Source: Halarcobacter sp.
GTDB taxonomy: Bacteria > Campylobacterota > Campylobacteria > Campylobacterales > Arcobacteraceae
DNA length: 64,000 nt
Direction of reading: 5' to 3'
Assembly: GCA_963676565.1 (NCBI GenBank)
Contig: OY781089.1
Coordinates: forward strand, 1,440,001-1,504,000
Shown one piece after another: positions 40,196 to 55,223 of this stretch. Below the pieces are notes generated by a model. It was not told where the DNA came from. It worked only from the letters and a program-made list of their open reading frames with translations, and did not search any database. The position numbers were made by a program, and so were the translations under genes. Numbering within the stretch: the stretch's first letter is position 1; the number at the start of each line of letters is the position of its first letter.

Positions 40196-40262
40196 TGATA
40201 ATAGTTATCAAAATTAGCAAACTTTAAGTTAATTTACTTTAATATACTGATATTCATTATCA
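40196..40262 (+). promoter_or_regulatory. Promoter with two Fur boxes
   Basis: TGATAATAGTTATCA (40196-40210), TTAAG-N11-TAATAT, TGATATTCATTATCA (40248-40262). Confidence 0.8.
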
Positions 40263-40275
40263 TTAAGGAGCATTT

Positions 40276-40578
40276 ATGTCAGTTTTAATAATTGGTGGGG
40301 ATAAGATTAATACGATTAAAAATATATTAGATAGTTTAGGAAATTTTTCTGTTACTCATTGGGATACAAGAAAAAAATCAAGCGCGTGTAAAAAAGAGAT
40401 TCCACATGATTCTGATTTTGTATTGATGATTACAGATTTTATTAATCACAATGCTATGTATAAATACAAAAATGAAGCAAAAAAGAAAAACATCCCTTTA
40501 ATTTGTACTAAAAGAAGTGCAAGTTCAGTTCACTGTGAAGTTTGCAAATTTTTAAAAATGAATAAATGTGAAGGATAA
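40276..40578 (+). CDS. DUF2325 family protein
   Basis: MSVLIIGGD, HWDTR, TDFINHNAM..KNEAKK.NIPLI. Confidence 0.88.
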   Translation: MSVLIIGGDKINTIKNILDSLGNFSVTHWDTRKKSSACKKEIPHDSDFVLMITDFINHNAMYKYKNEAKKKNIPLICTKRSASSVHCEVCKFLKMNKCEG

Positions 40579-40785
40579 GTGATGAGTGAAATAATAATTA
40601 ATGAAATTAATAGATTTAAAAGCTATAGATATGAACCAAGTACAAAAAGGGTTGTTAATCTAAAAGGGTGTGAAAATGCTGATTTAGAAGAGTTTCTAGC
40701 GATAGCACATATTTTAGATAGTAACTATATCAAATACAAATTTACAACAAATATAGATATTAGAATTCTAGATAGAAGAATATAA
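40579..40785 (+). CDS. Small hypothetical protein
   Basis: Abuts the DUF2325 stop codon; AAGGA RBS. Confidence 0.6.
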   Translation: MMSEIIINEINRFKSYRYEPSTKRVVNLKGCENADLEEFLAIAHILDSNYIKYKFTTNIDIRILDRRI

Positions 40786-40796
40786 AAGGAAATAAA

Positions 40797-41558
40797 ATGA
40801 AATATTTTGGTTTTTCAAGTGAAAATGAATACTTACCATCTTTTGATAAGTTTCAAAGTGAAATAAATAAAAGACTTATGTTTTTAAAATTTTTTAATCA
40901 AGAGGTTGATAAAAATTTTAGATTTTCAAAGAATGAGATGAAAGAGTGTAAGAAAAATACACTTTTCGAACTTTTTTTAAAAAAGATTATAAAAAATTTA
41001 AAATATAATGCTTATTCATTTTCACCAATAAAAAAAATAGATGTTGAAAAAACAAATAAGATAAATAAATTCGTAAAAGGTTTAAATCAAGAGCTAAAAT
41101 TTGAGTTCAAAAATTTTGATATAAAAAACTCATTGGAGTTTACAGACATAAATAAAGCATATTTTTTGATTAATATTTTAGAGAATAAAGATTTCTCCTT
41201 ATTTTTAGAGGGTGAAAAAATATTTAAAAACTTTGTTAGCAATAAAATTTTAAATGGTGGTGAAAATAGGGAGGTTTATATCAATGATGATTCTATTGAT
41301 ATTAAATCTGAACTTCACAATTTTAGTACTAAAATTTTTACATTTTGGGAATTTATTGATGCTAAAAATTTAAATATAGATTCACATATCAAAAAAGCAG
41401 TTGAGTGTATTGAAACTACAGAGTTTAAGCAAGTTTATTTGGTATATCCTAAAAATGAAAATTTTAATAAACATATACAAGTAAAAACAAATGATGTAAC
41501 TTGTGGTGAATATGAGATTAAGTTAATTCCATATTCATTACGTTCAACATTAAGATAA
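40797..41558 (+). CDS. Hypothetical protein, degenerate McrC-like
   Basis: FSLFLEGEKIFKNFV and VYLVYP resemble McrC motifs; catalytic motifs appear lost. Confidence 0.5.
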   Translation: MKYFGFSSENEYLPSFDKFQSEINKRLMFLKFFNQEVDKNFRFSKNEMKECKKNTLFELFLKKIIKNLKYNAYSFSPIKKIDVEKTNKINKFVKGLNQELKFEFKNFDIKNSLEFTDINKAYFLINILENKDFSLFLEGEKIFKNFVSNKILNGGENREVYINDDSIDIKSELHNFSTKIFTFWEFIDAKNLNIDSHIKKAVECIETTEFKQVYLVYPKNENFNKHIQVKTNDVTCGEYEIKLIPYSLRSTLR

Positions 41559-41586
41559 ATTTAGAATAAAAAAGGATTAATATATT

Positions 41587-42078
41587 ATGAAAGCAATTTT
41601 CTTTGCAACAAGTACTGGAAATACTGAAGAAGTAGCAAATAAAATACATGAGAAGTTAGATGGATTTGAGATTGTAGATATATCAAAAGATGGAATATCT
41701 AAATTAAATGATTGTGAAGTGGCAATTATTGGAACTCCAACATGGGGAGATGGGGAACTTCAAGATGATTGGGAAGATTGTTTTGATGAATTTAAAGAAA
41801 TAGATTTTAGTGGAAAAACAGTTGCCTTATTTGGTTTAGGAGATCAAGACTCTTATGGAGATGAGTTTGCAAATGCTTTAGGAACAATCTATGAAGTTGT
41901 ATCAACTAAAGGTGCAAATATTATTGGATTTACTTCTATTGAAACTTATGATTTTGAAGAATCAACAGCAGTTGTTGGTGAGGAGTTTGTTGGACTTGTG
42001 ATAGATGAAGATAATCAGCCTGAACTTACAGATGAACGAATTGATTCTTGGTGTGAAAACATCTCTTCATCTTTTTAA
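41587..42078 (+). CDS. fldA: Long-chain flavodoxin
   Basis: TSTGNTE, GTPTWGDGELQDDW, FGLGDQ, DEDNQ.ELT.ERI..W. Confidence 0.95.
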   Translation: MKAIFFATSTGNTEEVANKIHEKLDGFEIVDISKDGISKLNDCEVAIIGTPTWGDGELQDDWEDCFDEFKEIDFSGKTVALFGLGDQDSYGDEFANALGTIYEVVSTKGANIIGFTSIETYDFEESTAVVGEEFVGLVIDEDNQPELTDERIDSWCENISSSF

Positions 42079-47427: not shown

Positions 47428-47446
47428 AAAAGGAAAAAATCCTTTT
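47428..47446. terminator. Short bidirectional terminator hairpin
   Basis: AAAAGGA-AAAAA-TCCTTTT between convergent genes. Confidence 0.5.
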
Positions 47447-49514
47447 ATTTATTCTCTTCTAAAAGATGTTCGTATCTTTTATCTGTTAGTAGTTTCATAA
47501 AGGCAACTAAAGCATCTATTTTTCTATCATTTTGTTTTTTTGCTTTTAATTCATCCAATGAAATAGTCTCTTTTACTTCAGGTTCATCCCAAGGTTTTTT
47601 AGTTTCTGGGTTGATAGTTCTATCAGAATTATTGTATTTGTCATAAAACTCAACAACAGTTCTTAAGTCTTTGAAAATACCATTATGCATATAAGGAGCT
47701 GTAACAGCAACGTTTCTAAGAGTTGGAACTTTGTGCTTACCTTTATGGATTTCCTTGCTTACTTTTGGATTTGCTAATAATCCCATATCAATATCTTTTA
47801 CACCATTTTTTGATCTTAATTCATGATTTATTGGTGTTCCAATATTATGGTACTCATGGTTTGTAAAAGTCTCACCCATTGCATCTTCTTTTTTTGATAA
47901 GTGGCAAGTTGCACAAGAGTTATTTGCTTGTGAGAAGAATAAAGACCTTCCTAAATCCTCTAAAGGTGTTAAATCGTATTCTCCTTTTAAATATCTATCA
48001 TATTTAGAATCAAAGGGTGAAAATTGTTCTGTCATCTCAAATTTTTCAATTGAGTCAGTCATTGCAAAATATGCTTTGTTAATGTTTTTAAAGATATCTT
48101 CACCATAAATATCTTTAAAAGCTTGAATATAATAAGGGTTTTCTTTTAATCTTTTAATAACTTCTTTTTTTGAACTCATCCCCATCTCAATTGGGTTTAG
48201 TGGTGGACCACCAGCTTGTCCTGCTAAGCTTGCTTCCCTTCCATCCCAAAACTGACCACCAATATATTTTTTCTTCTCTTTGTCATAATGAAATTCAGGG
48301 CTAAACATTGCATACATAGCAGTTGGAGCTTGTCTATCTCCCAATGATTTTCCATCATCACCTAATGATGCCATTTTAGAGATACCGTTATCTCTATTAT
48401 CCGTAAAAGCAGTTTCAGGGTTATGACATGTTGAACAACTTTGTGTTCTGTTTTTAGATAGGTTTTTATCAAAAAATAAAGCTTGTCCTAAAGCCTCTTT
48501 TTGTTTAGTTTGTTTTACCAAGTCTTCTTTAGATAATTCTTGGTTTGTACATCCTACAAATAAAATTAATGCTGTTGCGACAGTTGTAGCTGTTTTTAAA
48601 TATTTCAAAATAAATTTCTCCTTCTTTAAAATATTTGAAAATGGAGTGATTATTAGTTTAGTTAAACTATTATAATCTTCCATTTGTTCTTTCCTAAGAC
48701 CAAATTTTAAAACCTTCACATTTTTAGAAAGTTCTAAAGTTCCAAAAATATAATCCCAAAGAGCTAGATACCCACCAAAGTTTTTATTAAAATGTTTCTT
48801 ACTATGGTGTATTTGATGCTGTTTTGGAGATATAAATATTTTTTCTAAAAAACTAAAGTATGCTAGTGGAATATGAGAATGCCTTAAATTAGATCCAATG
48901 ATTGAAAAAACAAAGATAAAAGCATTTGCTCCTAAAATCTCAACTAATCCAATTTTTGAACCAAAAAAGTATATAAATATTCCAGTTACAAAACCAATGG
49001 CAAAAGAGTATCTTAATCCAAAAAGAATATTTTCAATTGGATGAACCCTATAAAATGTTAATGGGTTTAAAACTTTTGCACTATGGTGTACCTTATGAAA
49101 CTCCCAAAGAAATGGGATTGTATGTAAGAATCTATGTAACCAATATCTTGTAAAATCACTTACAATGAATAAAGATATAGTATATAAAATCAATATATTC
49201 TCATATGAAATTGTTTGAATTTGATTAAAACCAAATTGGTAATAGATGTTTTTACTAACAAAAAATGCAATTGTTTTTGCACTAATTATAATTGGAATAA
49301 TCATAACTGTTTTTATAAAATATGAAAGGATAAAGTAGTAATAGTCTAACATGGCACTTTCATGAAGCCAAAGTTTTGAACTAAAATTTACCCTTGAGGC
49401 TTTTTTATTAAAATAAATATATATAAAAGCTATAAATATTGATGATAAAATATAAACCCAGTATGTTCTTTTTGATGGGTTAATTATATATTCCAAAAAC
49501 AGTAGATCTTCCAA
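47445..49514 (-). CDS. Fatty acid hydroxylase/sterol desaturase domain fused in frame to MauG/CCP-type di-heme protein
   Basis: His boxes YWLHRFLH, FHKVHH, RVHP, LRHS, HQIHH; then LFFDKNLS..SCSTCH, GQFWDGR, CATCH, KVPTLRNV..TAPYMHNG. Internal RBS, TTG at 48608 and lipobox. Confidence 0.88.
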   Translation of the reverse strand: MEDLLFLEYIINPSKRTYWVYILSSIFIAFIYIYFNKKASRVNFSSKLWLHESAMLDYYYFILSYFIKTVMIIPIIISAKTIAFFVSKNIYYQFGFNQIQTISYENILILYTISLFIVSDFTRYWLHRFLHTIPFLWEFHKVHHSAKVLNPLTFYRVHPIENILFGLRYSFAIGFVTGIFIYFFGSKIGLVEILGANAFIFVFSIIGSNLRHSHIPLAYFSFLEKIFISPKQHQIHHSKKHFNKNFGGYLALWDYIFGTLELSKNVKVLKFGLRKEQMEDYNSLTKLIITPFSNILKKEKFILKYLKTATTVATALILFVGCTNQELSKEDLVKQTKQKEALGQALFFDKNLSKNRTQSCSTCHNPETAFTDNRDNGISKMASLGDDGKSLGDRQAPTAMYAMFSPEFHYDKEKKKYIGGQFWDGREASLAGQAGGPPLNPIEMGMSSKKEVIKRLKENPYYIQAFKDIYGEDIFKNINKAYFAMTDSIEKFEMTEQFSPFDSKYDRYLKGEYDLTPLEDLGRSLFFSQANNSCATCHLSKKEDAMGETFTNHEYHNIGTPINHELRSKNGVKDIDMGLLANPKVSKEIHKGKHKVPTLRNVAVTAPYMHNGIFKDLRTVVEFYDKYNNSDRTINPETKKPWDEPEVKETISLDELKAKKQNDRKIDALVAFMKLLTDKRYEHLLEENK

Positions 49515-49519
49515 TTTAT

Positions 49520-50506
49520 TTAGTCTCCATCTGCATCTAAAATTTTTGCATTAATTGAAAGCTCTTCAATCATCTCAACAAATAAAATAACATGAATATT
49601 TGTAACTTCTTCATATATAATATTTGCATTAGAAAAATCATCATTTTTGATTTTTTTTACTTCACTAATAGAATTGTTTATTGCTTCTTTTAAAGTATTT
49701 AAAATCTCACCATCAGTAATTGTTAATAAATAATCACCATAATCATAGATTTTATCATTATCAAAAATTTTTTTGTATGTTTGCAAGATAGATAATATTG
49801 CATTTGCAGAATTTTTACTTATGAAATATTCTGCTCTACTATTATCTGCTTTATCTTTATATTTTTTTGTTTTACCCATAACATCAGCAACTCTCCATTC
49901 TTTTAGTTTATAAGAGTTTGCTACAACTCTATTGATAATAATAGAGTTTGCCTTTTCTATTTGTTTAAAAAGTTTTTCTTTATTTTCTTTATAGCCCTTT
50001 TGTATATCACTTAAGTGCATTATGATTCTATTGATTATTGCAATTGAGATTTCATTTACTCTTTTATTTGAGATATCTTTTTTATAAATAATATATTCAA
50101 GTGCATTTATAGATTTTAGTGAGTTTTTAAATAAAGCAATTCTAAGTTCATCACTACTTTTAATAGCACGGTCTAATTGTTTAGTTATATCTTCATTTCC
50201 ATTGTGAAAAATATCGATGTATCTAGGAGTATCAATATACTCTTCATCTAAATCACCTAAAATATAAAAACTTTCAACACTTTTCCAAGAGCTAACAAGT
50301 TTAGAAAACTCCTTTTTTATTTTTTGAGTATTTTTACTTTCTAGTTGTTCTTTTAGTTTTGTTGCATCGTTTATGGCTACTTCAATATCTTTTAAAATAA
50401 CTTTTTCATACAAAGTTTCAATAGCTTCAATGTTTTTTTTATCTGTGTTAGCAATTAAACTAATTGTAAAAACAGTAAGTAAAACAATACTTTTTAATAA
50501 TTTCAT
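49520..50506 (-). CDS. Imelysin-like (peptidase M75) periplasmic protein
   Basis: Signal peptide, SINALEYIIY (GxxAxE-like), C-terminal DADGD. Confidence 0.75.
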   Translation of the reverse strand: MKLLKSIVLLTVFTISLIANTDKKNIEAIETLYEKVILKDIEVAINDATKLKEQLESKNTQKIKKEFSKLVSSWKSVESFYILGDLDEEYIDTPRYIDIFHNGNEDITKQLDRAIKSSDELRIALFKNSLKSINALEYIIYKKDISNKRVNEISIAIINRIIMHLSDIQKGYKENKEKLFKQIEKANSIIINRVVANSYKLKEWRVADVMGKTKKYKDKADNSRAEYFISKNSANAILSILQTYKKIFDNDKIYDYGDYLLTITDGEILNTLKEAINNSISEVKKIKNDDFSNANIIYEEVTNIHVILFVEMIEELSINAKILDADGD

Positions 50507-50507
50507 T

Positions 50508-51854
50508 TTATACCTCTTTTAAGAATTCTATTAATTCTTTTCTATCTTCTTTTTTTAAATTCATATATGTTTCTTTGGCCTTTTTTGCTTCACCGCCATG
50601 CCACAAAATAGCTTCTTGAAAAGTTCTAGCTCTACCATCGTGAAGAAGTCGTGGTTTTTTATTATTTATTTTTTCATGAAGTGATAATCCCCATAAAGGA
50701 GCAGTTCTCCATTCACTACCACTAGCTTTACCTTCAATTTTTCCATCAGCTAAACCCTCTCCCATATCATGTAATAAAAGATCGGTAAAAGGGGAAAACT
50801 TTATTCCAGTATTTGTTTCAAAACTATCCATATGACAATTGACACAACCAATTTTTTTGAAAATTTCATAACCTTTATTATTCTTAGTTAATTTTTGACT
50901 GTAGGTTTTTCTTTTTTCTAAATAAAATTGAATAGCTTCAAGCCTTTGATCTGTTAAATCAAATGCATCTCTTGGCTTTGGTGCTTTGTTACACTCTTCT
51001 TGAAATTTTGTACAGTTTTCATTTTGATAATAGCTTGTTGTTAAACCCATATCATTATTAGCTGCATCTGCTATTTGGTGTTTCAAGCTTGTAATATTTG
51101 CTTTCCAAGAGAATTTTCCAAGTTCATGTTGTTTTGTAATAGGTGAGTAAATAAAATTTGCACGACCTGAAATCCCATCACCATCTTTATCATTTGGGTC
51201 TTCATTTTTTAATATATCTTCATCACTAATTTGAGAAATAAGTCCAAGTCCATTTAAACTTGGAGCTAATCTAAAACTTAAAACTGTTTTTTCATCTAAA
51301 GGTCCATATTGTAAATCCTTCAAACCATAAATTGGTTTTAAAAGTGTATCAATCTCACCATCAGGAAAAGCAACTTTAATCTCTTCAAATTTTATATCAG
51401 TTTTTGCTTCATATTTAACACCATGGATCCCATTTATAGCTATTTGTGAACCATAAATAGGATCATAAGAAGGTTTTGGAATTAAACTTCTAGCAAAACT
51501 TCCATTTTTATTATAAAGGGTACCTCTTCCATTACTAGGATGACAAGAAGCACAGGTATTTGCATTATAAAGTGGTCCTAAACCATCTCTTGCTGTTGTG
51601 GCACTTGGAGCTTCAACCCACGGGATTCTAAAAAAACTTTTACCTAAGATAAATTTATCATATTGCTCATCATTTAATCCATCAATTGGTTTTAAAAGTA
51701 TAGATTTACTTTTATTTGATGTTATATCATAAGCACTACAATTAACCGCAAAAAGCCCTATAGCAAAAATTGCTACAAGGCTCTTTGTAAAAGTATTTTT
51801 AAAAGAGAAAATATTATAGTTTAGTTTCTTCAGGATCTGTAACATCATCTTCAC
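50508..51854 (-). CDS. Di-heme oxidoreductase family protein (DUF1111/DHOR); start uncertain
   Basis: RDGLGPLYNA.TCASCH, DPNDKDGDGISGR, GKFSWKA, CVNCH, TDLLLHDMG, WRTAPLWG, LHDGRART. Confidence 0.92.
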   Translation of the reverse strand: MKMMLQILKKLNYNIFSFKNTFTKSLVAIFAIGLFAVNCSAYDITSNKSKSILLKPIDGLNDEQYDKFILGKSFFRIPWVEAPSATTARDGLGPLYNANTCASCHPSNGRGTLYNKNGSFARSLIPKPSYDPIYGSQIAINGIHGVKYEAKTDIKFEEIKVAFPDGEIDTLLKPIYGLKDLQYGPLDEKTVLSFRLAPSLNGLGLISQISDEDILKNEDPNDKDGDGISGRANFIYSPITKQHELGKFSWKANITSLKHQIADAANNDMGLTTSYYQNENCTKFQEECNKAPKPRDAFDLTDQRLEAIQFYLEKRKTYSQKLTKNNKGYEIFKKIGCVNCHMDSFETNTGIKFSPFTDLLLHDMGEGLADGKIEGKASGSEWRTAPLWGLSLHEKINNKKPRLLHDGRARTFQEAILWHGGEAKKAKETYMNLKKEDRKELIEFLKEV

Positions 51855-53157
51855 TTAAAGAGATTCCATTTGCAGCTGCAACTGTAACCATTTCATCACC
51901 AAGTTTTCTCATCTCATTTTTCATTTTAACTATCACTTTTGCTTGTGGATTATCTGGCTGAATTTGATAATCAAAGTGTGCTGTTGTCATTGCAGTTTTA
52001 TTTACACTTGCAATTTTTTTCTCAATAGATTTCATAAGTGTAATAATTCTTTCTCTATCTTCACTAGATAGGGCATCTAATAAAGAAGGCCCAAAAGATT
52101 TACCCATATATGTTCCAGTTAAAACATTTCTAAATCCAAGGTAATTTGCTGTTATATCTCTATGTGTATTGTCAGAGAAGCAAGAGTGCTCATCCTCTTC
52201 TGATGGAGTTAAAACTGCAACTGCAATTCTTTCATTTGCTAATTCAGATTTAATAAATACACCCATTCCAGCAATAATTTGTTTTAATGCATCTTGTGTT
52301 GGTATATTTTTTGATTTATTCTCACCAGTTAATTTTCCTAAAAATGCGTTTTTATATAAACCATCATCTGTCCAAGCTTTATTAATAACTTCTAAATCAG
52401 CAACAATTTTACTAGAAGCGGCTTTTAAGTAAGCTAGTCTTCTAGGTGCATTTGAATCGCTTGTAAAATCACTTAGTGGTCTTTGTCCAGCAGTTAAAGG
52501 TCCATTTGTGATACTATCCTTTACAAAATTTGAATAGTCTTGATCTTGCCCCCATAAAATAAACTCAATGGCATGGTATCCTGTTGCAACATTTGCATCT
52601 CCACCATTTTCATTTAAAGCTGTGATTGCATCTACCGTAATATTTGAAACATCAACTGTGCTTGCTTCTTCTCCACCTGGATTAAAAGAACCAACTGTAT
52701 CAATAATATTTCCTGATGTCTTGTTTCCATCTGCATCAATAGTATAATCAATCATATTTTCATCTAGTGGCCAAGCATTTAATTGCCCTTCTAATGCACC
52801 ATAAGTATCTGCTACCCATCCTTCTTCTGCATCAATTGGACCATTTGAAAGTCTAAATATTTCAGTTTGACCATATGATTCTCTTGAATCTAACCATGCT
52901 TTTTTTGCATCTGCTAAAGTACTATTTGTTGGATTAGCTATAAATTTATCAATTGCAAGTTCTAAGTTTTTTGCATCTTTTAAAGCATCTGAGTAATTAG
53001 CATGTGCAATTTTTGCATAAGTAAGCAATGCAGAGTTTTCTTTTTTAATCTCCATTTTATTTGAAGTCTCTACCCCTTGGTTTGAGGTAGAACAACCTGC
53101 AAATGTTAAAGCTGCTGCTAAACTTAAACTTGAAGCGATTAATTTTGTTTTAGACAT
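51814..53157 (-). CDS. Imelysin-family iron-regulated lipoprotein (IrpA/IcmP-like)
   Basis: Lipobox FAGC; YGQTEIFR, NAWPLDE, TGYHAIEFILWGQD, EDEHSCFSDNT. Confidence 0.94.
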   Translation of the reverse strand: MSKTKLIASSLSLAAALTFAGCSTSNQGVETSNKMEIKKENSALLTYAKIAHANYSDALKDAKNLELAIDKFIANPTNSTLADAKKAWLDSRESYGQTEIFRLSNGPIDAEEGWVADTYGALEGQLNAWPLDENMIDYTIDADGNKTSGNIIDTVGSFNPGGEEASTVDVSNITVDAITALNENGGDANVATGYHAIEFILWGQDQDYSNFVKDSITNGPLTAGQRPLSDFTSDSNAPRRLAYLKAASSKIVADLEVINKAWTDDGLYKNAFLGKLTGENKSKNIPTQDALKQIIAGMGVFIKSELANERIAVAVLTPSEEDEHSCFSDNTHRDITANYLGFRNVLTGTYMGKSFGPSLLDALSSEDRERIITLMKSIEKKIASVNKTAMTTAHFDYQIQPDNPQAKVIVKMKNEMRKLGDEMVTVAAANGISLSEDDVTDPEETKL

Positions 53158-53181: not shown

Positions 53182-53288
53182 TGATACTTATTATCAATTG
53201 AATTTCGAAATTGTAATTCAATGTTCCTTAAGAGATACTTAATATTAATAATGGTTATCATTAAAATATATCTTGAGATTGATTTTCA
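53182..53288 (-). promoter_or_regulatory. Imelysin operon promoter with multiple Fur boxes
   Basis: TGATACTTATTATCA (53182-96), TAATAATGGTTATCA (53246-60), TGAGATTGATTTTCA (53274-88); minus-strand TTAAG-N11-TACAAT. Confidence 0.8.
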
Positions 53289-53300
53289 ATTTCTAAAACC

Positions 53301-53323
53301 AAGGAATGCAATTTGCATTCCTT
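53301..53323. repeat. Perfect palindrome (11-1-11)
   Basis: AAGGAATGCAA-T-TTGCATTCCTT. Confidence 0.9.
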
Positions 53324-53358
53324 AAAAGTAGTTTCTGAAAAAGATGTCATTATTAAAA

Positions 53359-53423
53359 CAATAATTGTTATCATTAATAATTAATTAAGCTATAGGTAAG
53401 TAATATACCGATATTCATTATCA
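53359..53423 (+). promoter_or_regulatory. Fur-boxed promoter of small ORF
   Basis: CAATAATTGTTATCA, TTAAG-N11-TAATAT, CGATATTCATTATCA. Confidence 0.72.
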
Positions 53424-53573: not shown

Positions 53574-54545
53574 TTAATCTTTACTCCAGATTCTTCTATT
53601 TAGTTTTAATTCTTCAACGCAACCTATTACAAGGCTTAATATCTCTATATATTCGAAGATAAGTGTTTCGTTTAACAAAGATGTAAAAACAGTAGGCTCA
53701 AATAAATCTTTTTTGTAATCAATTGCAATATGTAACTTATTTTTTGTAAATGATATATAAATATCATTTTTAGATTTTTTCTTAAAATTTAAAATCAACT
53801 CCATAAGATTTTGAGTTAAAATATATCTTACTTCAATTTGGTCATCGGAATAAACAACAAACTCTTTTTCAAAATCAACACTATCCATTTTTACAAGTTC
53901 ACCCCTTGAAGAATTTTTTGATTGAAGCCAAGAACCAATTAAATCTCCAAAACTATTTTGTGCAAAATCTGGAAGAACGAGTGTAGTTCCATAAAAGTTT
54001 TTATTAAAATCAGCAGCTATAAAAAGTCCTTGAAATATAGTTGAGTACTTTGTTCTTCCCTTGGAGTCCTTATATTTTTTTTTGGCATGAATATCAGAAA
54101 ATTGTATTTGTGTTTTATCAATTGTCCCAATTGTAAAATCATTTCCTGTGAACTTGTCAGGGTAACTAAAAAGTTTTGAATCAGTGAAAATAGTTTTAGA
54201 GATATGAAGATTTGAAGAATAATTCAAATTGGAATCAATCTGCTTTATTAAAGGTTTTATTACATATTCTTTAAATTCACTTCTATAATCTTTTTTCATA
54301 TATTTATATAAAAAAATTCCAAGTGAAACTAAAATAGCTATTGTTATGAAAATTCCATCTTCTTTATTTGAACTATTATAAAAAAAGATAAAGTAGATTG
54401 CAATTGCATTCCAAAACATTATAAAGTAGATAAAAAGAAGTTTGTTTTTTAATTTTTTTCTTTTCTCTTCAAGTTTATTTACATCTTTTACTAAAGTATT
54501 TTTATAAAACTCTTTTAGTTCATCAACACTTTTATTTTTTTGCAA
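53574..54545 (-). CDS. DUF3137 family membrane protein
   Basis: 2 TM; IFQGLF..DFNKNF.G.T.VLPD, F.KEF.VYSDDQIE.RYIL; downstream of lemA. Confidence 0.85.
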   Translation of the reverse strand: MQKNKSVDELKEFYKNTLVKDVNKLEEKRKKLKNKLLFIYFIMFWNAIAIYFIFFYNSSNKEDGIFITIAILVSLGIFLYKYMKKDYRSEFKEYVIKPLIKQIDSNLNYSSNLHISKTIFTDSKLFSYPDKFTGNDFTIGTIDKTQIQFSDIHAKKKYKDSKGRTKYSTIFQGLFIAADFNKNFYGTTLVLPDFAQNSFGDLIGSWLQSKNSSRGELVKMDSVDFEKEFVVYSDDQIEVRYILTQNLMELILNFKKKSKNDIYISFTKNKLHIAIDYKKDLFEPTVFTSLLNETLIFEYIEILSLVIGCVEELKLNRRIWSKD

Positions 54546-54562
54546 AACTTTACTTTATTAGA

Positions 54563-55123
54563 TTATTTATTGCTAAATAGCTCTTCAACAAGAATATTGT
54601 CTTTTTGTGTATCTTCTATTTCAAATAGTTCTTTTTCTTTATAGTTCATTATTTTAGCCATAAAATTTGTTGGTATCATCTCAATTGCATTATTATAATC
54701 CGTAACAGCTTGGTTGTATGCTCTTCTTGATGCTGAGATCTGTTCCTCTATTTCATTTAATGATTTTTGTAATTCAATTATATTTTCATTGGCTTTTAAT
54801 TCTGGATATTCCTCAACTGTTACCATTAATCCAGCTAAAGCTTTTGAAAACTTTTTATCAATACTCATTTTTTGTGAATTATCAATATTCTTTCTTATAC
54901 CTTGTGATCTTAATGAAGTTACTTCTTCAAGGAGTGACTTTTCATGTTCCATATATCTTTTAACACTTGCTACAATGTTTGGAACTAAGTCATATCTTTT
55001 TTTTAATTGCACATCAACTGAGGCAAAGAGGTTTTCCACTTGATTCTTTTTTGCAATAAGTGAGTTATACATTAAAACAAGTATGATTATAAAAATAATT
55101 AATATAATAATTGTTGTGTTCAT
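54563..55123 (-). CDS. lemA: LemA family protein
   Basis: Start moved to ATG 55123 (AAGGA RBS); YNSL, DVQLKKRYDLVPN, EEYPELKA, SRRAYN. Confidence 0.93.
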   Translation of the reverse strand: MNTTIIILIIFIIILVLMYNSLIAKKNQVENLFASVDVQLKKRYDLVPNIVASVKRYMEHEKSLLEEVTSLRSQGIRKNIDNSQKMSIDKKFSKALAGLMVTVEEYPELKANENIIELQKSLNEIEEQISASRRAYNQAVTDYNNAIEMIPTNFMAKIMNYKEKELFEIEDTQKDNILVEELFSNK

Positions 55124-55223
55124 TTTAATCCTTTTATTAGCTAGTAGTTTAACTAAAAAAATAAAAAATTGAAATAAAAAGTAAAAAAAGCTAGAATTCA
55201 AACAATATAATTTTGGATGTGTT

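What the first reader, a model, noticed from the sequence alone, without database searches (positions are those of the whole stretch)
47445..49514. In-frame fusion of a membrane di-iron desaturase domain and a MauG/CCP di-heme protein, with an internal start
Seen: one 689-aa ORF. Residues ~1-300 have complete fatty-acid-hydroxylase His boxes; the rest is a di-heme peroxidase-like domain (CSTCH, CATCH, distal PYMH). At the junction is AAGGAG (48623-48618), then 9 nt, an in-frame TTG (48608) and a lipoprotein signal (KYLKTATTVATALILFVGC). Inference: the locus may make both a fused membrane protein and a stand-alone lipoprotein, or the internal signal acts as a TM/cleavage linker coupling a cytoplasm-side di-iron site to a periplasmic di-heme. 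A recent stop-codon loss is the alternative.
Basis: partly seen in the sequence, partly recalled or inferred. Interest (0 to 1): 0.75.

Follow-up and report, generated by a model that had tools for sequence, protein, structure and literature searches.

The report
Frameshift-fused membrane di-iron/MauG-like gene
Two neighbouring genes of an iron-regulated operon, one for a membrane di-iron enzyme and one for an exported MauG-type two-haem protein, have been welded into one reading frame by a single extra base, and the old start signals of the second gene survive inside the fusion.

Summary
In detail: a 689-aa ORF (47445-49514, minus strand) joins an FA_hydroxylase domain with all His boxes to a di-haem CCP_MauG domain. 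AAGGAG, a 9-nt spacer, in-frame TTG and a lipobox signal sit at the junction.

Origin: in the 80 related loci fetched, the two halves are adjacent but separate genes in 27, fused in 2, and the haem gene has no such neighbour in 51. The nearest genomes (72-80% identity) have a stop overlapping or within a few bases of the start (TAATG, ATGA, TAAAATG). The window carries one extra A (48625-48627) that shifts the first frame into the second five codons before the old stop. Proteins 98% and 85% identical share the fusion, so it is not an assembly error. The SD, TTG and lipoprotein signal are inherited from the downstream gene.

Context: last gene of an imelysin / DHOR / imelysin-like operon with Fur-box-like sites, conserved in 25 of the 27 split loci. 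The haem half is about 50% identical to Paracoccus MauG and keeps its Tyr haem ligand.

Most likely the signal works as an internal export signal and is probably cleaved, giving the ancestral two proteins. This is inferred, not shown.

The fusion itself is ordinary. The conserved gene pair, not found in four literature searches, is moderately interesting.

The parts
47445..49514 (-). Fused ORF, 689 aa, TTG start at 49514, stop at 47445-47447
   Evidence: ORF list; sequence; two Pfam domains
48615..49514 (-). FA_hydroxylase-family membrane di-iron half (residues 1-300). Predicted TM helices at about 19-35, 52-75, 104-124, 159-187 and 190-208, followed by a Lys/Arg-rich tail inferred to be cytoplasmic.
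   Evidence: PF04116, 91.1 bits; hydropathy; 14 K/R in residues 215-302; AF2 model, pLDDT 93, helices; ten His invariant in the 21 fused sequences of A2
49122..49136 (-). His box 1, HRFLH (H127-H131)
   Evidence: invariant in A2 and A3
49083..49097 (-). His box 2, HKVHH (H140-H144)
   Evidence: invariant in A2 and A3
48804..48818 (-). His box 3, HQIHH (H233-H237)
   Evidence: invariant in A2 and A3
48625..48627 (-). AAA run holding the extra A (TTTTAAAGAAGGAG here, TTTTAAGAAGGAG in L001, L004 and L011) that fuses the two frames
   Evidence: junction DNA alignment and tail translations
48618..48623 (-). AAGGAG, the Shine-Dalgarno sequence of the ancestral downstream gene, now read as Lys-Glu codons
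   Evidence: same hexamer in the tail of the upstream gene in L001, L004, L011
48606..48608 (-). In-frame TTG (Leu303) at the position of the ancestral ATG start of the haem-protein gene
   Evidence: aligns with Met1 of the stand-alone proteins; ATG in L001-L004, L011, L015, L027, L035, L037; TTG in L005
48549..48608 (-). Former lipoprotein signal peptide, now the linker (residues 303-322): K-rich n-region, 14-residue hydrophobic core, lipobox LFVG-C322
   Evidence: helix 302-323 in the full-length model
47448..48548 (-). MauG-type di-haem domain (residues 323-689), inferred periplasmic
   Evidence: PF03150; E about 1e-107 to Paracoccus MauG chains
48423..48437 (-). Haem motif 1, CSTCH (C360-H364; H364 corresponds to MauG His35)
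47901..47915 (-). Haem motif 2, CATCH (C534-H538; H538 corresponds to MauG His205)
47643..47645 (-). Tyr624, the equivalent of MauG Tyr294 (axial ligand of the six-coordinate haem)
   Evidence: alignment; Tyr in 99 of 99 family rows
49520..50506 (-). Imelysin-like gene B (328 aa), directly upstream in the operon
50508..51854 (-). DHOR/DUF1111 di-haem gene (448 aa)
51814..53157 (-). Imelysin gene A (447 aa, lipobox FAGC), first gene of the operon
53182..53423 (.). Three Fur-box-like 7-1-7 sites (53182-53196, 53246-53260, 53409-53423) in the 416-bp region upstream of imelysin A
   Evidence: 3 of the window's 8 matches; 2.24 expected per 64 kb; the same motif at about -95 and -30 in 11 of 24 related loci

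Best explanation
This is a lineage-specific fusion of two ancestrally separate, adjacent genes: a sterol-desaturase/FA_hydroxylase-family inner-membrane di-iron protein and an exported MauG-type di-haem lipoprotein. They are the last two genes of a probably Fur-regulated operon: imelysin, DHOR, imelysin-like, FAH, MauG-like.

Shown: one inserted A, five codons before the old stop, moved the first frame into the second. The Shine-Dalgarno sequence, the old start position (now TTG) and the lipoprotein signal peptide became internal.

Inferred mechanism: translation starts at 49514. The di-iron half inserts into the inner membrane with its His boxes and Lys-rich tail on the cytoplasmic side. The former signal peptide then acts as an internal N-in/C-out export signal and carries the di-haem half into the periplasm, where the c-type haems are attached.

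More likely than not (about 0.5-0.6), the short 14-residue hydrophobic core with its intact lipobox is still acylated at Cys322 and cut by signal peptidase II. The fusion would then be a self-resolving polyprotein that yields the ancestral pair at 1:1 and is nearly neutral. Some extra lipoprotein may also start at the internal SD/TTG.

Functionally, the pair belongs to a periplasmic iron-acquisition system. The haem half is a MauG-type (His/Tyr-haem) oxidant with a substrate other than methylamine dehydrogenase. The role of the di-iron partner is unknown.
For: Origin:
- of 80 related loci, 27 have the FAH gene directly upstream of the haem gene as a separate ORF in another frame, 2 are fused, and 51 have no adjacent FAH.
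- in L001, L004 and L011 the upstream gene ends ...ATT TTA AGA AGG AGA ... TAA or TGA, overlapping or within a few bases of the ATG (TAATG, ATGA, TAAAATG). The window has TTTTAAAG where they have TTTTAAG, and reads straight through.
- window + P0001 + P0002 form a clade (97* in the C-half tree, 99* in the N-half tree). In the N-half tree it is nested among split Arcobacteraceae (7-row clade, 99*).

Not an artefact:
- P0001 (98% identical, 26 member sequences) and P0002 (85%, 5 members, 2 contigs, two sources) are fused.
- both show the same junction, NILKKEK.
- all His ligands, haem motifs and Tyr624 are kept.

Topology:
- 14 K/R in residues 215-302.
- split relatives end in RRRS, RRRKI or KRKQ.
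- A c-type haem domain must be exported (established knowledge).

Cleavage (indirect):
- the lipobox Cys is kept in the window, P0001, P0002 and P0003.
- the same FAH subfamily is also found fused to imelysin (4 clusters), TonB-dependent receptors (3) and solute-binding proteins (2). Each has a signal peptide with a lipobox or an AxA-type site as linker. An outer-membrane barrel can work only if released.

Context:
- the three upstream genes are conserved in 25 of the 27 split loci and in fused L054.
- Fur-box-like sites.
- FUR, FTR1 + cupredoxin, Fe-type ABC/SBP, ferritin and flavodoxin genes next to the cluster in relatives.

MauG type:
- E about 1e-107 to Paracoccus MauG.
- Tyr294 equivalent in 99 of 99 rows.
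Against: - No data here show cleavage, lipidation or internal initiation; all three are inferred.
- Fused forms persist in old clades. An all-fused group of 11 rows in the C-half tree (support 84) and 10 rows in the N-half tree (support 82) spans clusters below 50% identity. A tether might therefore be useful in itself, not just tolerated.
- Some old linkers (for example P0004) have no obvious cleavage motif.
- The ancestral ATG is Leu in both the window and P0002. That fits loss of the internal start as well as a weak TTG start.
- The fusions to receptors and binding proteins come from metagenome gene calls. Some could be indel errors in overlapping genes.
- The Fur-box consensus used was recalled, not taken from a database.
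Confidence: 0.6

Rival explanations
1. The fusion is a permanently tethered, uncleaved bifunctional protein. The former signal peptide is a sixth TM helix that holds the MauG-type domain on the periplasmic face of its di-iron partner. The tether is selected because the two act as one complex, for example passing oxidising equivalents or iron across the membrane.
For: - Fusions of this pair occur in several lineages: at least 5 changes between fused and split on the C-half tree and 6 on the N-half tree, of which 3 are forced by starred branches.
- Some fused clades are old.
- Haem proteins with an FAH partner form one side of a branch against those without: 1 change, the partner-less clade supported at 95*.
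- A conserved N-terminal segment inferred to be periplasmic (Y9, R16) exists in the FAH subfamily.
Against: - The hydrophobic core is only about 14 residues and ends in an intact lipobox.
- Most relatives work with two separate proteins (27 of the 29 loci with both halves).
- The same FAH subfamily is fused to unrelated exported proteins, including outer-membrane receptors. This points to a permissive position rather than a specific tether.
- No redox cofactor is evident within the membrane span.
Confidence: 0.25
2. The frameshift is mildly harmful or silent for the upstream half. The haem lipoprotein is made mainly or only from the internal SD/TTG as in the ancestor, and the 689-aa product is a minor or unstable by-product.
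For: AAGGAG with a 9-nt spacer and TTG is intact. The spacing lies within the 6-11 nt seen in relatives. TTG appears to serve as the start of the stand-alone gene in L005.
Against: - The upstream half keeps every His ligand, and the whole protein is conserved between clusters 85% identical, so the long frame is not decaying.
- ATG was replaced by a weaker codon.
- Ribosomes reading through the long frame would cover the internal site.
Confidence: 0.12
3. The extra A is a sequencing or assembly error in a short A/T run, and the organism really has two genes.
For: The change is a single base in a run (AA to AAA) in very AT-rich DNA.
Against: Two other protein clusters from other assemblies (98% and 85% identical) have the same continuous frame and the same junction peptide.
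Confidence: 0.03

Closest known systems
MauG of Paracoccus denitrificans (TTQ-forming di-haem enzyme; PDB 3L4M and mutants)
   Same: About 50% identity over the whole domain, E about 1e-107. Both CxxCH motifs are present, and so are the equivalents of Tyr294 (Y624), Trp93 (W423), Gln103, Pro107, Glu113, Thr275 and Pro277. Tyr294 is described as the feature that separates MauG from CCPs in PMC7567364 (passage read).
   Different: Trp199, the surface residue, is absent: Q529 aligns there and residues 526-533 hold no Trp. That Trp199 passes the oxidising hole to the substrate is recalled, not taken from a call. Asn66 is Gln. The protein scores 96.1 bits against the 443.85-bit cut-off of the MauG equivalog TIGR03791. 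It sits in an imelysin/DHOR operon, not beside methylamine dehydrogenase genes. It has a lipoprotein signal and here is fused to a membrane protein.
MauG-like di-haem enzymes MbnH (PDB 6E1C) and BthA (PDB 6NX0)
   Same: Same superfamily. MbnH is the best NCBIfam family match (TIGR04039, E 7e-43). They are accessory oxidants encoded beside metal-homeostasis genes (recalled).
   Different: Much more distant than MauG itself (E 4e-26 and 1.5e-34). The score is below the family cut-off (146.9 against 362.85 bits). None of the genes scanned in or beside the operon matched anything but the families listed. MbnP was not searched for by name.
FA_hydroxylase superfamily (Scs7p sphingolipid hydroxylase, PDB 4ZR0; OlsE ornithine-lipid hydroxylase)
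   Same: Pfam PF04116 is met. All His boxes are present. The four best PDB fold hits of the AF2 model are Scs7p chains.
   Different: The fold match is weak (E 1 or more, TM about 0.3). OlsE scores 54.1 bits against a 475-bit cut-off. The half has an extra N-terminal TM helix with a conserved Y-x3-P-x2-R segment, sits in iron-uptake loci, and has no known substrate.
Fur-regulated imelysin operons (P. aeruginosa PA4370-PA4373, V. cholerae VC1264-VC1266) and EfeUOB
   Same: The order imelysin, DUF1111 di-haem protein, imelysin-like with Fur control is as described in PMC3143127 (passages read). Relatives L031 and L045 add cupredoxin and an FTR1 permease directly upstream, resembling EfeU/EfeO.
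   Different: That paper mentions no desaturase or hydroxylase (0 occurrences of either word). The FAH plus MauG-like pair at the end of the operon is extra.
Bacterial polyproteins resolved at an internal signal peptide (Bradyrhizobium FbcH, cytochrome b-c1 precursor)
   Same: A membrane protein is followed in one frame by a signal peptide and a periplasmic c-type haem protein. Cleavage gives two subunits.
   Different: Recalled only: search listed no paper that holds the term fbcH. FbcH uses a type I site. Here the site is a lipobox (type II), and cleavage has not been shown.

Membership tests
FA_hydroxylase superfamily (Pfam PF04116) | Profile match above the gathering score | tested here: met
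   91.1 bits against a cut-off of 31, residues 114-259
FA_hydroxylase superfamily (Pfam PF04116) | His boxes HX3-4H, HX2-3HH and HX2-3HH that bind the di-iron site | tested here: met
   H127/H131, H140/H143/H144 and H233/H236/H237, plus H158 and H212, are invariant in A2 (21 sequences) and A3 (45 sequences)
FA_hydroxylase superfamily (Pfam PF04116) | Fold like the solved member Scs7p | tested here: inconclusive
   the four best PDB hits are Scs7p chains, but with E 1 or more and TM about 0.3
OlsE ornithine-lipid hydroxylase (NF052566) | Score above the equivalog cut-off | tested here: not met
   54.1 bits against 475
MauG (TTQ biosynthesis enzyme) | Two CxxCH haem motifs | tested here: met
   C360/C363/H364 and C534/C537/H538
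MauG (TTQ biosynthesis enzyme) | Tyr (Tyr294) as axial ligand of the six-coordinate haem, in place of the Met or His of CCPs | tested here: met
   Y624 aligns with Tyr294; Tyr in 99 of 99 rows; definition from PMC7567364. Ligation itself is inferred from the alignment.
MauG (TTQ biosynthesis enzyme) | Trp199 at the substrate interface (role recalled from the MauG literature) | tested here: not met
   Q529 aligns there; no Trp in residues 526-533
MauG (TTQ biosynthesis enzyme) | Score above the cut-off of equivalog TIGR03791 | tested here: not met
   96.1 bits against 443.85
MauG (TTQ biosynthesis enzyme) | Encoded within a methylamine dehydrogenase (mau) cluster | tested here: not met
   the scanned neighbours are imelysin, DHOR, an ABC/FtsX transporter, LemA and others; no dehydrogenase subunit among them. 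The rest of the window was not scanned for mau genes.
MbnH family (TIGR04039) | Score above the family cut-off | tested here: not met
   146.9 bits against 362.85
Bacterial lipoprotein signal (type II) | Positive n-region, hydrophobic core, lipobox [LVI..][ASTVI][GAS]C | tested here: met
   KYLK, then TATTVATALILF, then V-G-C322, aligned with the MKYLK...L[FT]AC of the stand-alone homologues. The motif rule is recalled, and no predictor was available.
Bacterial lipoprotein signal (type II) | Actual acylation and cleavage by Lgt and LspA when the signal is internal | not testable with these tools
   needs protein chemistry
Imelysin / DUF1111 Fur-regulated iron-uptake operon | Gene order imelysin, DUF1111 di-haem protein, imelysin-like | tested here: met
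   description in PMC3143127
Imelysin / DUF1111 Fur-regulated iron-uptake operon | Fur box upstream | tested here: inconclusive
   three sites with 1-2 mismatches to a recalled consensus, with conserved position in 11 of 24 relatives. Binding was not shown.

The most novel reading that the evidence does not exclude
The FA_hydroxylase-family membrane protein is an unrecognised inner-membrane component of Fur-regulated periplasmic iron-acquisition systems. It works in a physical complex with the MauG-type di-haem enzyme. Its recurrent fusions to that enzyme, and to imelysins, TonB-dependent receptors and iron-type binding proteins, would then record a real partnership. One possibility is that a high-valent haem oxidant in the periplasm is coupled, by hole hopping or by iron hand-off, to a di-iron site at the cytoplasmic face.
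Probability: 0.15. Interest if true: 0.8.

Novelty: new variant of a known kind. Interest (0 to 1): 0.45.

Why it matters
The fusion in itself is an ordinary evolutionary accident. It is still a clean natural experiment: a cytoplasm-ending membrane protein followed by a signal peptide can be fused without disturbing topology. It offers a test of whether bacterial type II signal peptides are processed when internal.

More useful is what the fusion points to. A sterol-desaturase-like di-iron membrane protein and a true MauG-type (His/Tyr haem) enzyme form a conserved pair at the end of imelysin/DHOR iron-uptake operons. The pair occurs in Campylobacterota and in Gamma- and Alphaproteobacteria.

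Four full-text searches found no paper that links this pair to those operons. The imelysin paper whose passages I read (PMC3143127) describes the biochemistry of imelysin systems as poorly understood. A MauG-type oxidant in that system suggests either post-translational oxidation of a partner protein or Fe(II) oxidation, and either can be tested.

Tried and rejected
- Complex prediction, di-iron half (A3) against mature haem half (A4): no verdict (score 0.00, controls not run). It counts neither for nor against binding.
- Full-length AF2 model from the 21-sequence alignment: pLDDT 71.7, pTM 0.47. This is too weak to say how the domains pack. Only the helical linker (302-323) is noted.
- Fold search of the N-half model against the PDB: Scs7p ranks first, but no hit has E of 0.001 or better.
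- Sequence search of the N half against the PDB: one chance-level hit only.
- Protein Atlas on the N half: only 'sterol desaturase family protein' clusters, no new lead.
- Promoter and terminator scan: counts at or below the shuffled expectation, so uninformative in this AT-rich DNA.
- 19-mer Fur consensus: one match elsewhere in the window, at chance level. It was replaced by the 7-1-7 form.
- Programmed -1 frameshifting in the split relatives: considered and rejected. Read in the upstream frame (ATT TTA AGA), the junction has no X XXY YYZ slippery heptamer.
- The FAH protein as the missing iron permease: weakened, because relatives L031 and L045 carry a genuine FTR1 permease in the same cluster.
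The lengths and sources of the cluster members were therefore not checked.
- Literature on PA4373: only 'uncharacterized protein'.
- Search for FbcH: none of the listed papers holds the term fbcH.
Full report
1. THE OBSERVATION

The ORF list and the sequence show one open frame on the minus strand, 49514 to 47445, 689 aa, starting at TTG five bases after the stop of the upstream gene.

Pfam finds FA_hydroxylase at residues 114-259 (E 1e-25) and CCP_MauG at 338-513 (E 2.2e-46). So are AAGGAG (48623-48618), the 9-nt spacer, the in-frame TTG (48608, residue 303) and the signal KYLKTATTVATALILFVGC (Cys322).

2. IS THE FUSION CONSERVED?

A search with the whole protein listed the best 120 clusters.
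- Twenty are fused proteins of 675-736 aa, 45-98% identical to the window.
- One hundred are stand-alone haem proteins of 378-395 aa, 68-81% identical to the C half. The named ones come from Halarcobacter, Malaciobacter, Poseidonibacter and Aliarcobacter.

In the alignment, Leu303 of the window lies on Met1 of the stand-alone proteins. The window's linker aligns with their lipoprotein signal (MKYLK...L[FT]AC).

Of these, 573 were confirmed and the best 80 loci were kept. I compared each half of the window protein with these loci:
- 27 loci have an FAH gene directly upstream of the haem gene, as a separate ORF in a different frame.
- 2 are fused: L054, and L058, which is cut by its contig end.
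- 51 have the haem gene without an adjacent FAH gene.

The closest loci (L001, L002, L004, L011) are all split. Their N halves are 72-80% identical and their C halves 77-80%.

3. THE MUTATION

The junction DNA alignment shows how the upstream gene ends in L001, L004 and L011...ATT TTA AGA AGG AGA, then one or three more codons, then TAA or TGA.
- The stop overlaps the ATG of the haem gene (TAATG, ATGA) or lies a base before it (TAAAATG).
- AAGGAG lies inside the tail of the upstream gene.
- Of the 18 junctions printed, 7 have overlapping stop and start, 4 have a spacer of 1-2 nt, 5 have longer overlaps, and 2 have gaps of more than 60 nt.

The window reads TTTTAAAGAAGGAG where these relatives read TTTTAAGAAGGAG. 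This is one extra A at 48625-48627. It moves the upstream frame by one base into the downstream frame, which is open there. 'NIL-RRRS-stop' becomes 'NIL-KKEKFI-L-KYLK...'.

The ancestral ATG is TTG in the window. L005 has TTG at the start of its separate gene.

The event is therefore a frameshift fusion, not a stop-codon substitution. No slippery heptamer is present in the upstream frame, so I found no sign of programmed frameshifting in the relatives.

4. REAL OR ARTEFACT?

P0001 (98% identical, 26 member sequences) and P0002 (85%, 5 members on 2 contigs, two sources) are fused and carry the same junction peptide, NILKKEK. In both trees they form a clade with the window:
- C half: 97*, 99 rows.
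- N half: 99*, 49 rows. This clade sits inside a 7-row clade (99*) that contains four split Arcobacteraceae.

All His ligands, both haem motifs and Tyr624 are invariant across the fused set. The fusion is real. It is shared by proteins that differ by 15% and is not decaying.

I could not see the DNA of P0001 or P0002. The codon for Leu303 in P0002 is therefore unknown.

5. HOW OFTEN DOES IT HAPPEN?

On the C-half tree, fused versus split needs at least 5 changes; starred branches alone force 1. On the N-half tree it needs 6, of which 3 are forced by starred branches.

Rows dropped from the trees were L072 and L079 (C-half match shorter than 300 residues) and L058 (N-half match too short).

At 50% identity clustering, 4 of the best 150 representatives match across both halves in one stretch: P0026, P0014, P0010 and P0013.

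Fusion, or fission, of this pair has therefore happened several times, and some fused clades are old. This is easy to understand mechanically: where stop and start overlap, a single indel is enough.

6. A PERMISSIVE POSITION

The same search, followed by Pfam on 24 long hits, showed that the FAH subfamily is also fused at its C-terminus to other exported proteins:
- imelysin domains: P0183, P0210, P0219, P0255;
- TonB-dependent receptors: P0197, P0241, P0254;
- iron-type periplasmic binding proteins: P0203, P0257.

In every one of these the linker is a signal peptide with a lipobox or an AxA-type site.

The tail of the FAH protein is rich in Lys and Arg (14 in residues 215-302; RRRS-type ends in relatives). 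It follows the last His box, which in this family faces the cytoplasm (established for the family, inferred here). A signal peptide placed after it therefore keeps its normal N-in/C-out orientation, and the fusion does not disturb topology.

An outer-membrane barrel can function only if it is released. So at least those fusions, if they are real and functional, must be cut at the internal signal. Some may instead be indel errors in metagenome assemblies; I cannot exclude that.

7. WHAT THE HALVES ARE

The C half.
- It is about 50% identical to Paracoccus denitrificans MauG (E about 1e-107). That is far closer than BthA (1.5e-34), MbnH (4e-26) or the classical peroxidases (1e-18 to 1e-24).
- It keeps the equivalents of His35, His205, Tyr294 (Y624), Trp93 (W423), Gln103, Pro107 and Glu113.
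- Tyr294 is the feature that PMC7567364 (passage read) gives as separating MauG from CCPs. It is Tyr in 99 of 99 family rows.
- Trp199 of MauG is not conserved (Q529).
- The MauG equivalog model scores only 96.1 bits against a 443.85-bit cut-off.
- No methylamine dehydrogenase gene is among the scanned neighbours.

It is therefore a MauG-type oxidant with a different substrate.

The N half.
- It meets Pfam FA_hydroxylase. It is far below the OlsE cut-off and has no PDB sequence relative.
- Its AF2 model is confident (pLDDT 93). The top four fold hits are Scs7p, but they are not significant.
- Helices and charges suggest five TM helices, with the N-terminus outside and the tail inside. This is inferred.

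8. THE OPERON

The fused gene is the fourth gene of a tight minus-strand series:
- imelysin A, 51814-53157;
- DHOR/DUF1111, 50508-51854;
- imelysin-like B, 49520-50506;
- the fused gene, 47445-49514.

The same three genes, in the same order, stand upstream of the pair in 25 of the 27 split loci and in fused L054. The exceptions are L015 and L047, the latter near a contig start.

In the loci without an FAH gene, 24 of 51 still have imelysin and DHOR nearby, and 2 more have DHOR only. On the tree, haem proteins with and without an FAH partner separate with a single change; the partner-less clade is supported at 95*.

Three of the window's eight matches (2 mismatches or fewer) to a recalled Fur 7-1-7 consensus lie in the 416 bp upstream of imelysin A (2.24 expected in 64 kb). 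The motif recurs at about -95 and -30 in 11 of 24 related loci, at 1.65 per kb against 0.115 per kb elsewhere.

Neighbours in relatives include:
- a FUR gene (L001);
- an ABC permease and ATPase (L004);
- ferritin, an ABC ATPase and a binding protein (L006);
- flavodoxin (L013);
- cupredoxin plus an FTR1 permease directly upstream (L031, L045).

PMC3143127 (passages read) describes the Fur-regulated operon imelysin / DUF1111 / imelysin-like and links it to EfeUOB. It contains neither the word desaturase nor the word hydroxylase.

Four searches found no paper that links this pair to these operons:
- imelysin with DUF1111;
- imelysin, sterol desaturase, fatty acid hydroxylase and cytochrome c peroxidase in any pairing;
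- MauG with imelysin;
- sterol desaturase with Fur regulon.

Only the library described by the tool was searched.

9. MECHANISM AND RIVALS

Shown:
- the origin by a +1 insertion;
- inheritance of the SD, the start position and the signal from the downstream gene;
- conservation of both active sites;
- the iron-uptake context.

Inferred: the topology, and export of the haem half through the internal signal.

More likely than not, but unproven, is cleavage at the lipobox, which would give the ancestral two proteins. The arguments for it are:
- the hydrophobic core is short (14 residues);
- the lipobox Cys is retained in the window, P0001, P0002 and P0003;
- the same FAH subfamily is fused to receptors that must be released.

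Rivals:
- A permanent tether with functional coupling (0.25). This is favoured by the age of some fused clades.
- Expression of the haem protein mainly from the internal start (0.12).
- An assembly error (0.03).

The complex-prediction job gave no verdict, and the full-length model was too weak to show domain packing. Neither is used as evidence.

10. VERDICT

The fusion is real but ordinary in kind: a lineage-specific frameshift that joins two adjacent genes whose stop and start overlap or nearly touch. Its 'internal start' is a remnant of the downstream gene. Its interest lies in two things:
- it is a natural test of whether an internal lipoprotein signal is processed;
- it exposes a conserved, apparently undescribed partnership between a membrane di-iron protein and a MauG-type enzyme in iron-uptake operons.

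Noticed in passing
window 47445-53157; loci L001-L014, L017, L018, L027, L031, L034, L035, L037-L039, L045, L054, L073, L078: A five-gene cluster (imelysin, DHOR, imelysin-like, FAH, MauG-like) is conserved in order across Campylobacterota, Gammaproteobacteria and one Alphaproteobacterium. It is present in 25 of 27 split loci plus fused L054.
   Followed up: yes
proteins P0183, P0210, P0219, P0255, P0197, P0241, P0254, P0203, P0257: The same FAH subfamily is fused C-terminally to imelysin, TonB-dependent receptor or solute-binding domains. In each case a signal peptide forms the linker. Whether these fusions are real or are indel artefacts of metagenome assemblies is not known.
   Followed up: partly
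loci L031:1565-2929 and L045:1736-3039: A cupredoxin-like gene and an FTR1 iron permease gene sit directly upstream of imelysin A in Psychromonas and Rhodalgimonas. This makes a seven-gene cluster that resembles EfeUOB.
   Followed up: partly
window 40196-42078: Two more Fur-box-like sites (40196-40210 and 40248-40262, 1 mismatch each) precede a DUF2325 gene, a 253-aa gene with no family match and a flavodoxin gene. In L013 a no-family gene and a flavodoxin gene lie directly upstream of imelysin A. Flavodoxin could be the cytoplasmic electron donor of the di-iron protein; this is speculation.
   Followed up: partly
C-half alignment, window residue W423: The equivalent of MauG Trp93, which lies between the two haems, is Trp in only 54 of 99 family rows. 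The others have Leu, His, Tyr or Phe. The Tyr294 equivalent is invariant.
   Followed up: partly
proteins P0122, P0124, P0134, P0121, P0156: MauG-type domains of this family also occur fused to glucose/sorbosone dehydrogenase (GSDH) domains, a subtilase, Ig-like domains and RoxA-like cytochrome domains.
   Followed up: no
loci L015 and L058: A contig labelled Paceibacteria (L015) carries Arcobacteraceae-like genes: 75% identity to the window's C half, grouping with L027 and L035 in the trees. A contig labelled Acidimicrobiia (L058) carries a fused gene nearly identical to P0015. These contigs are probably mis-binned. The FAH gene of L015 matches only from residue 76 onward, and no imelysin gene lies upstream.
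   Followed up: no
window 51814-51854: The listed DHOR ORF (GTG at 51854) overlaps the end of imelysin A by 41 bases. The true start may lie further downstream.
   Followed up: no
window 53574-55201: A LemA gene and a DUF3137 gene lie upstream on the same strand, separated from the operon by the 416-bp region that holds the Fur-box-like sites.
   Followed up: no
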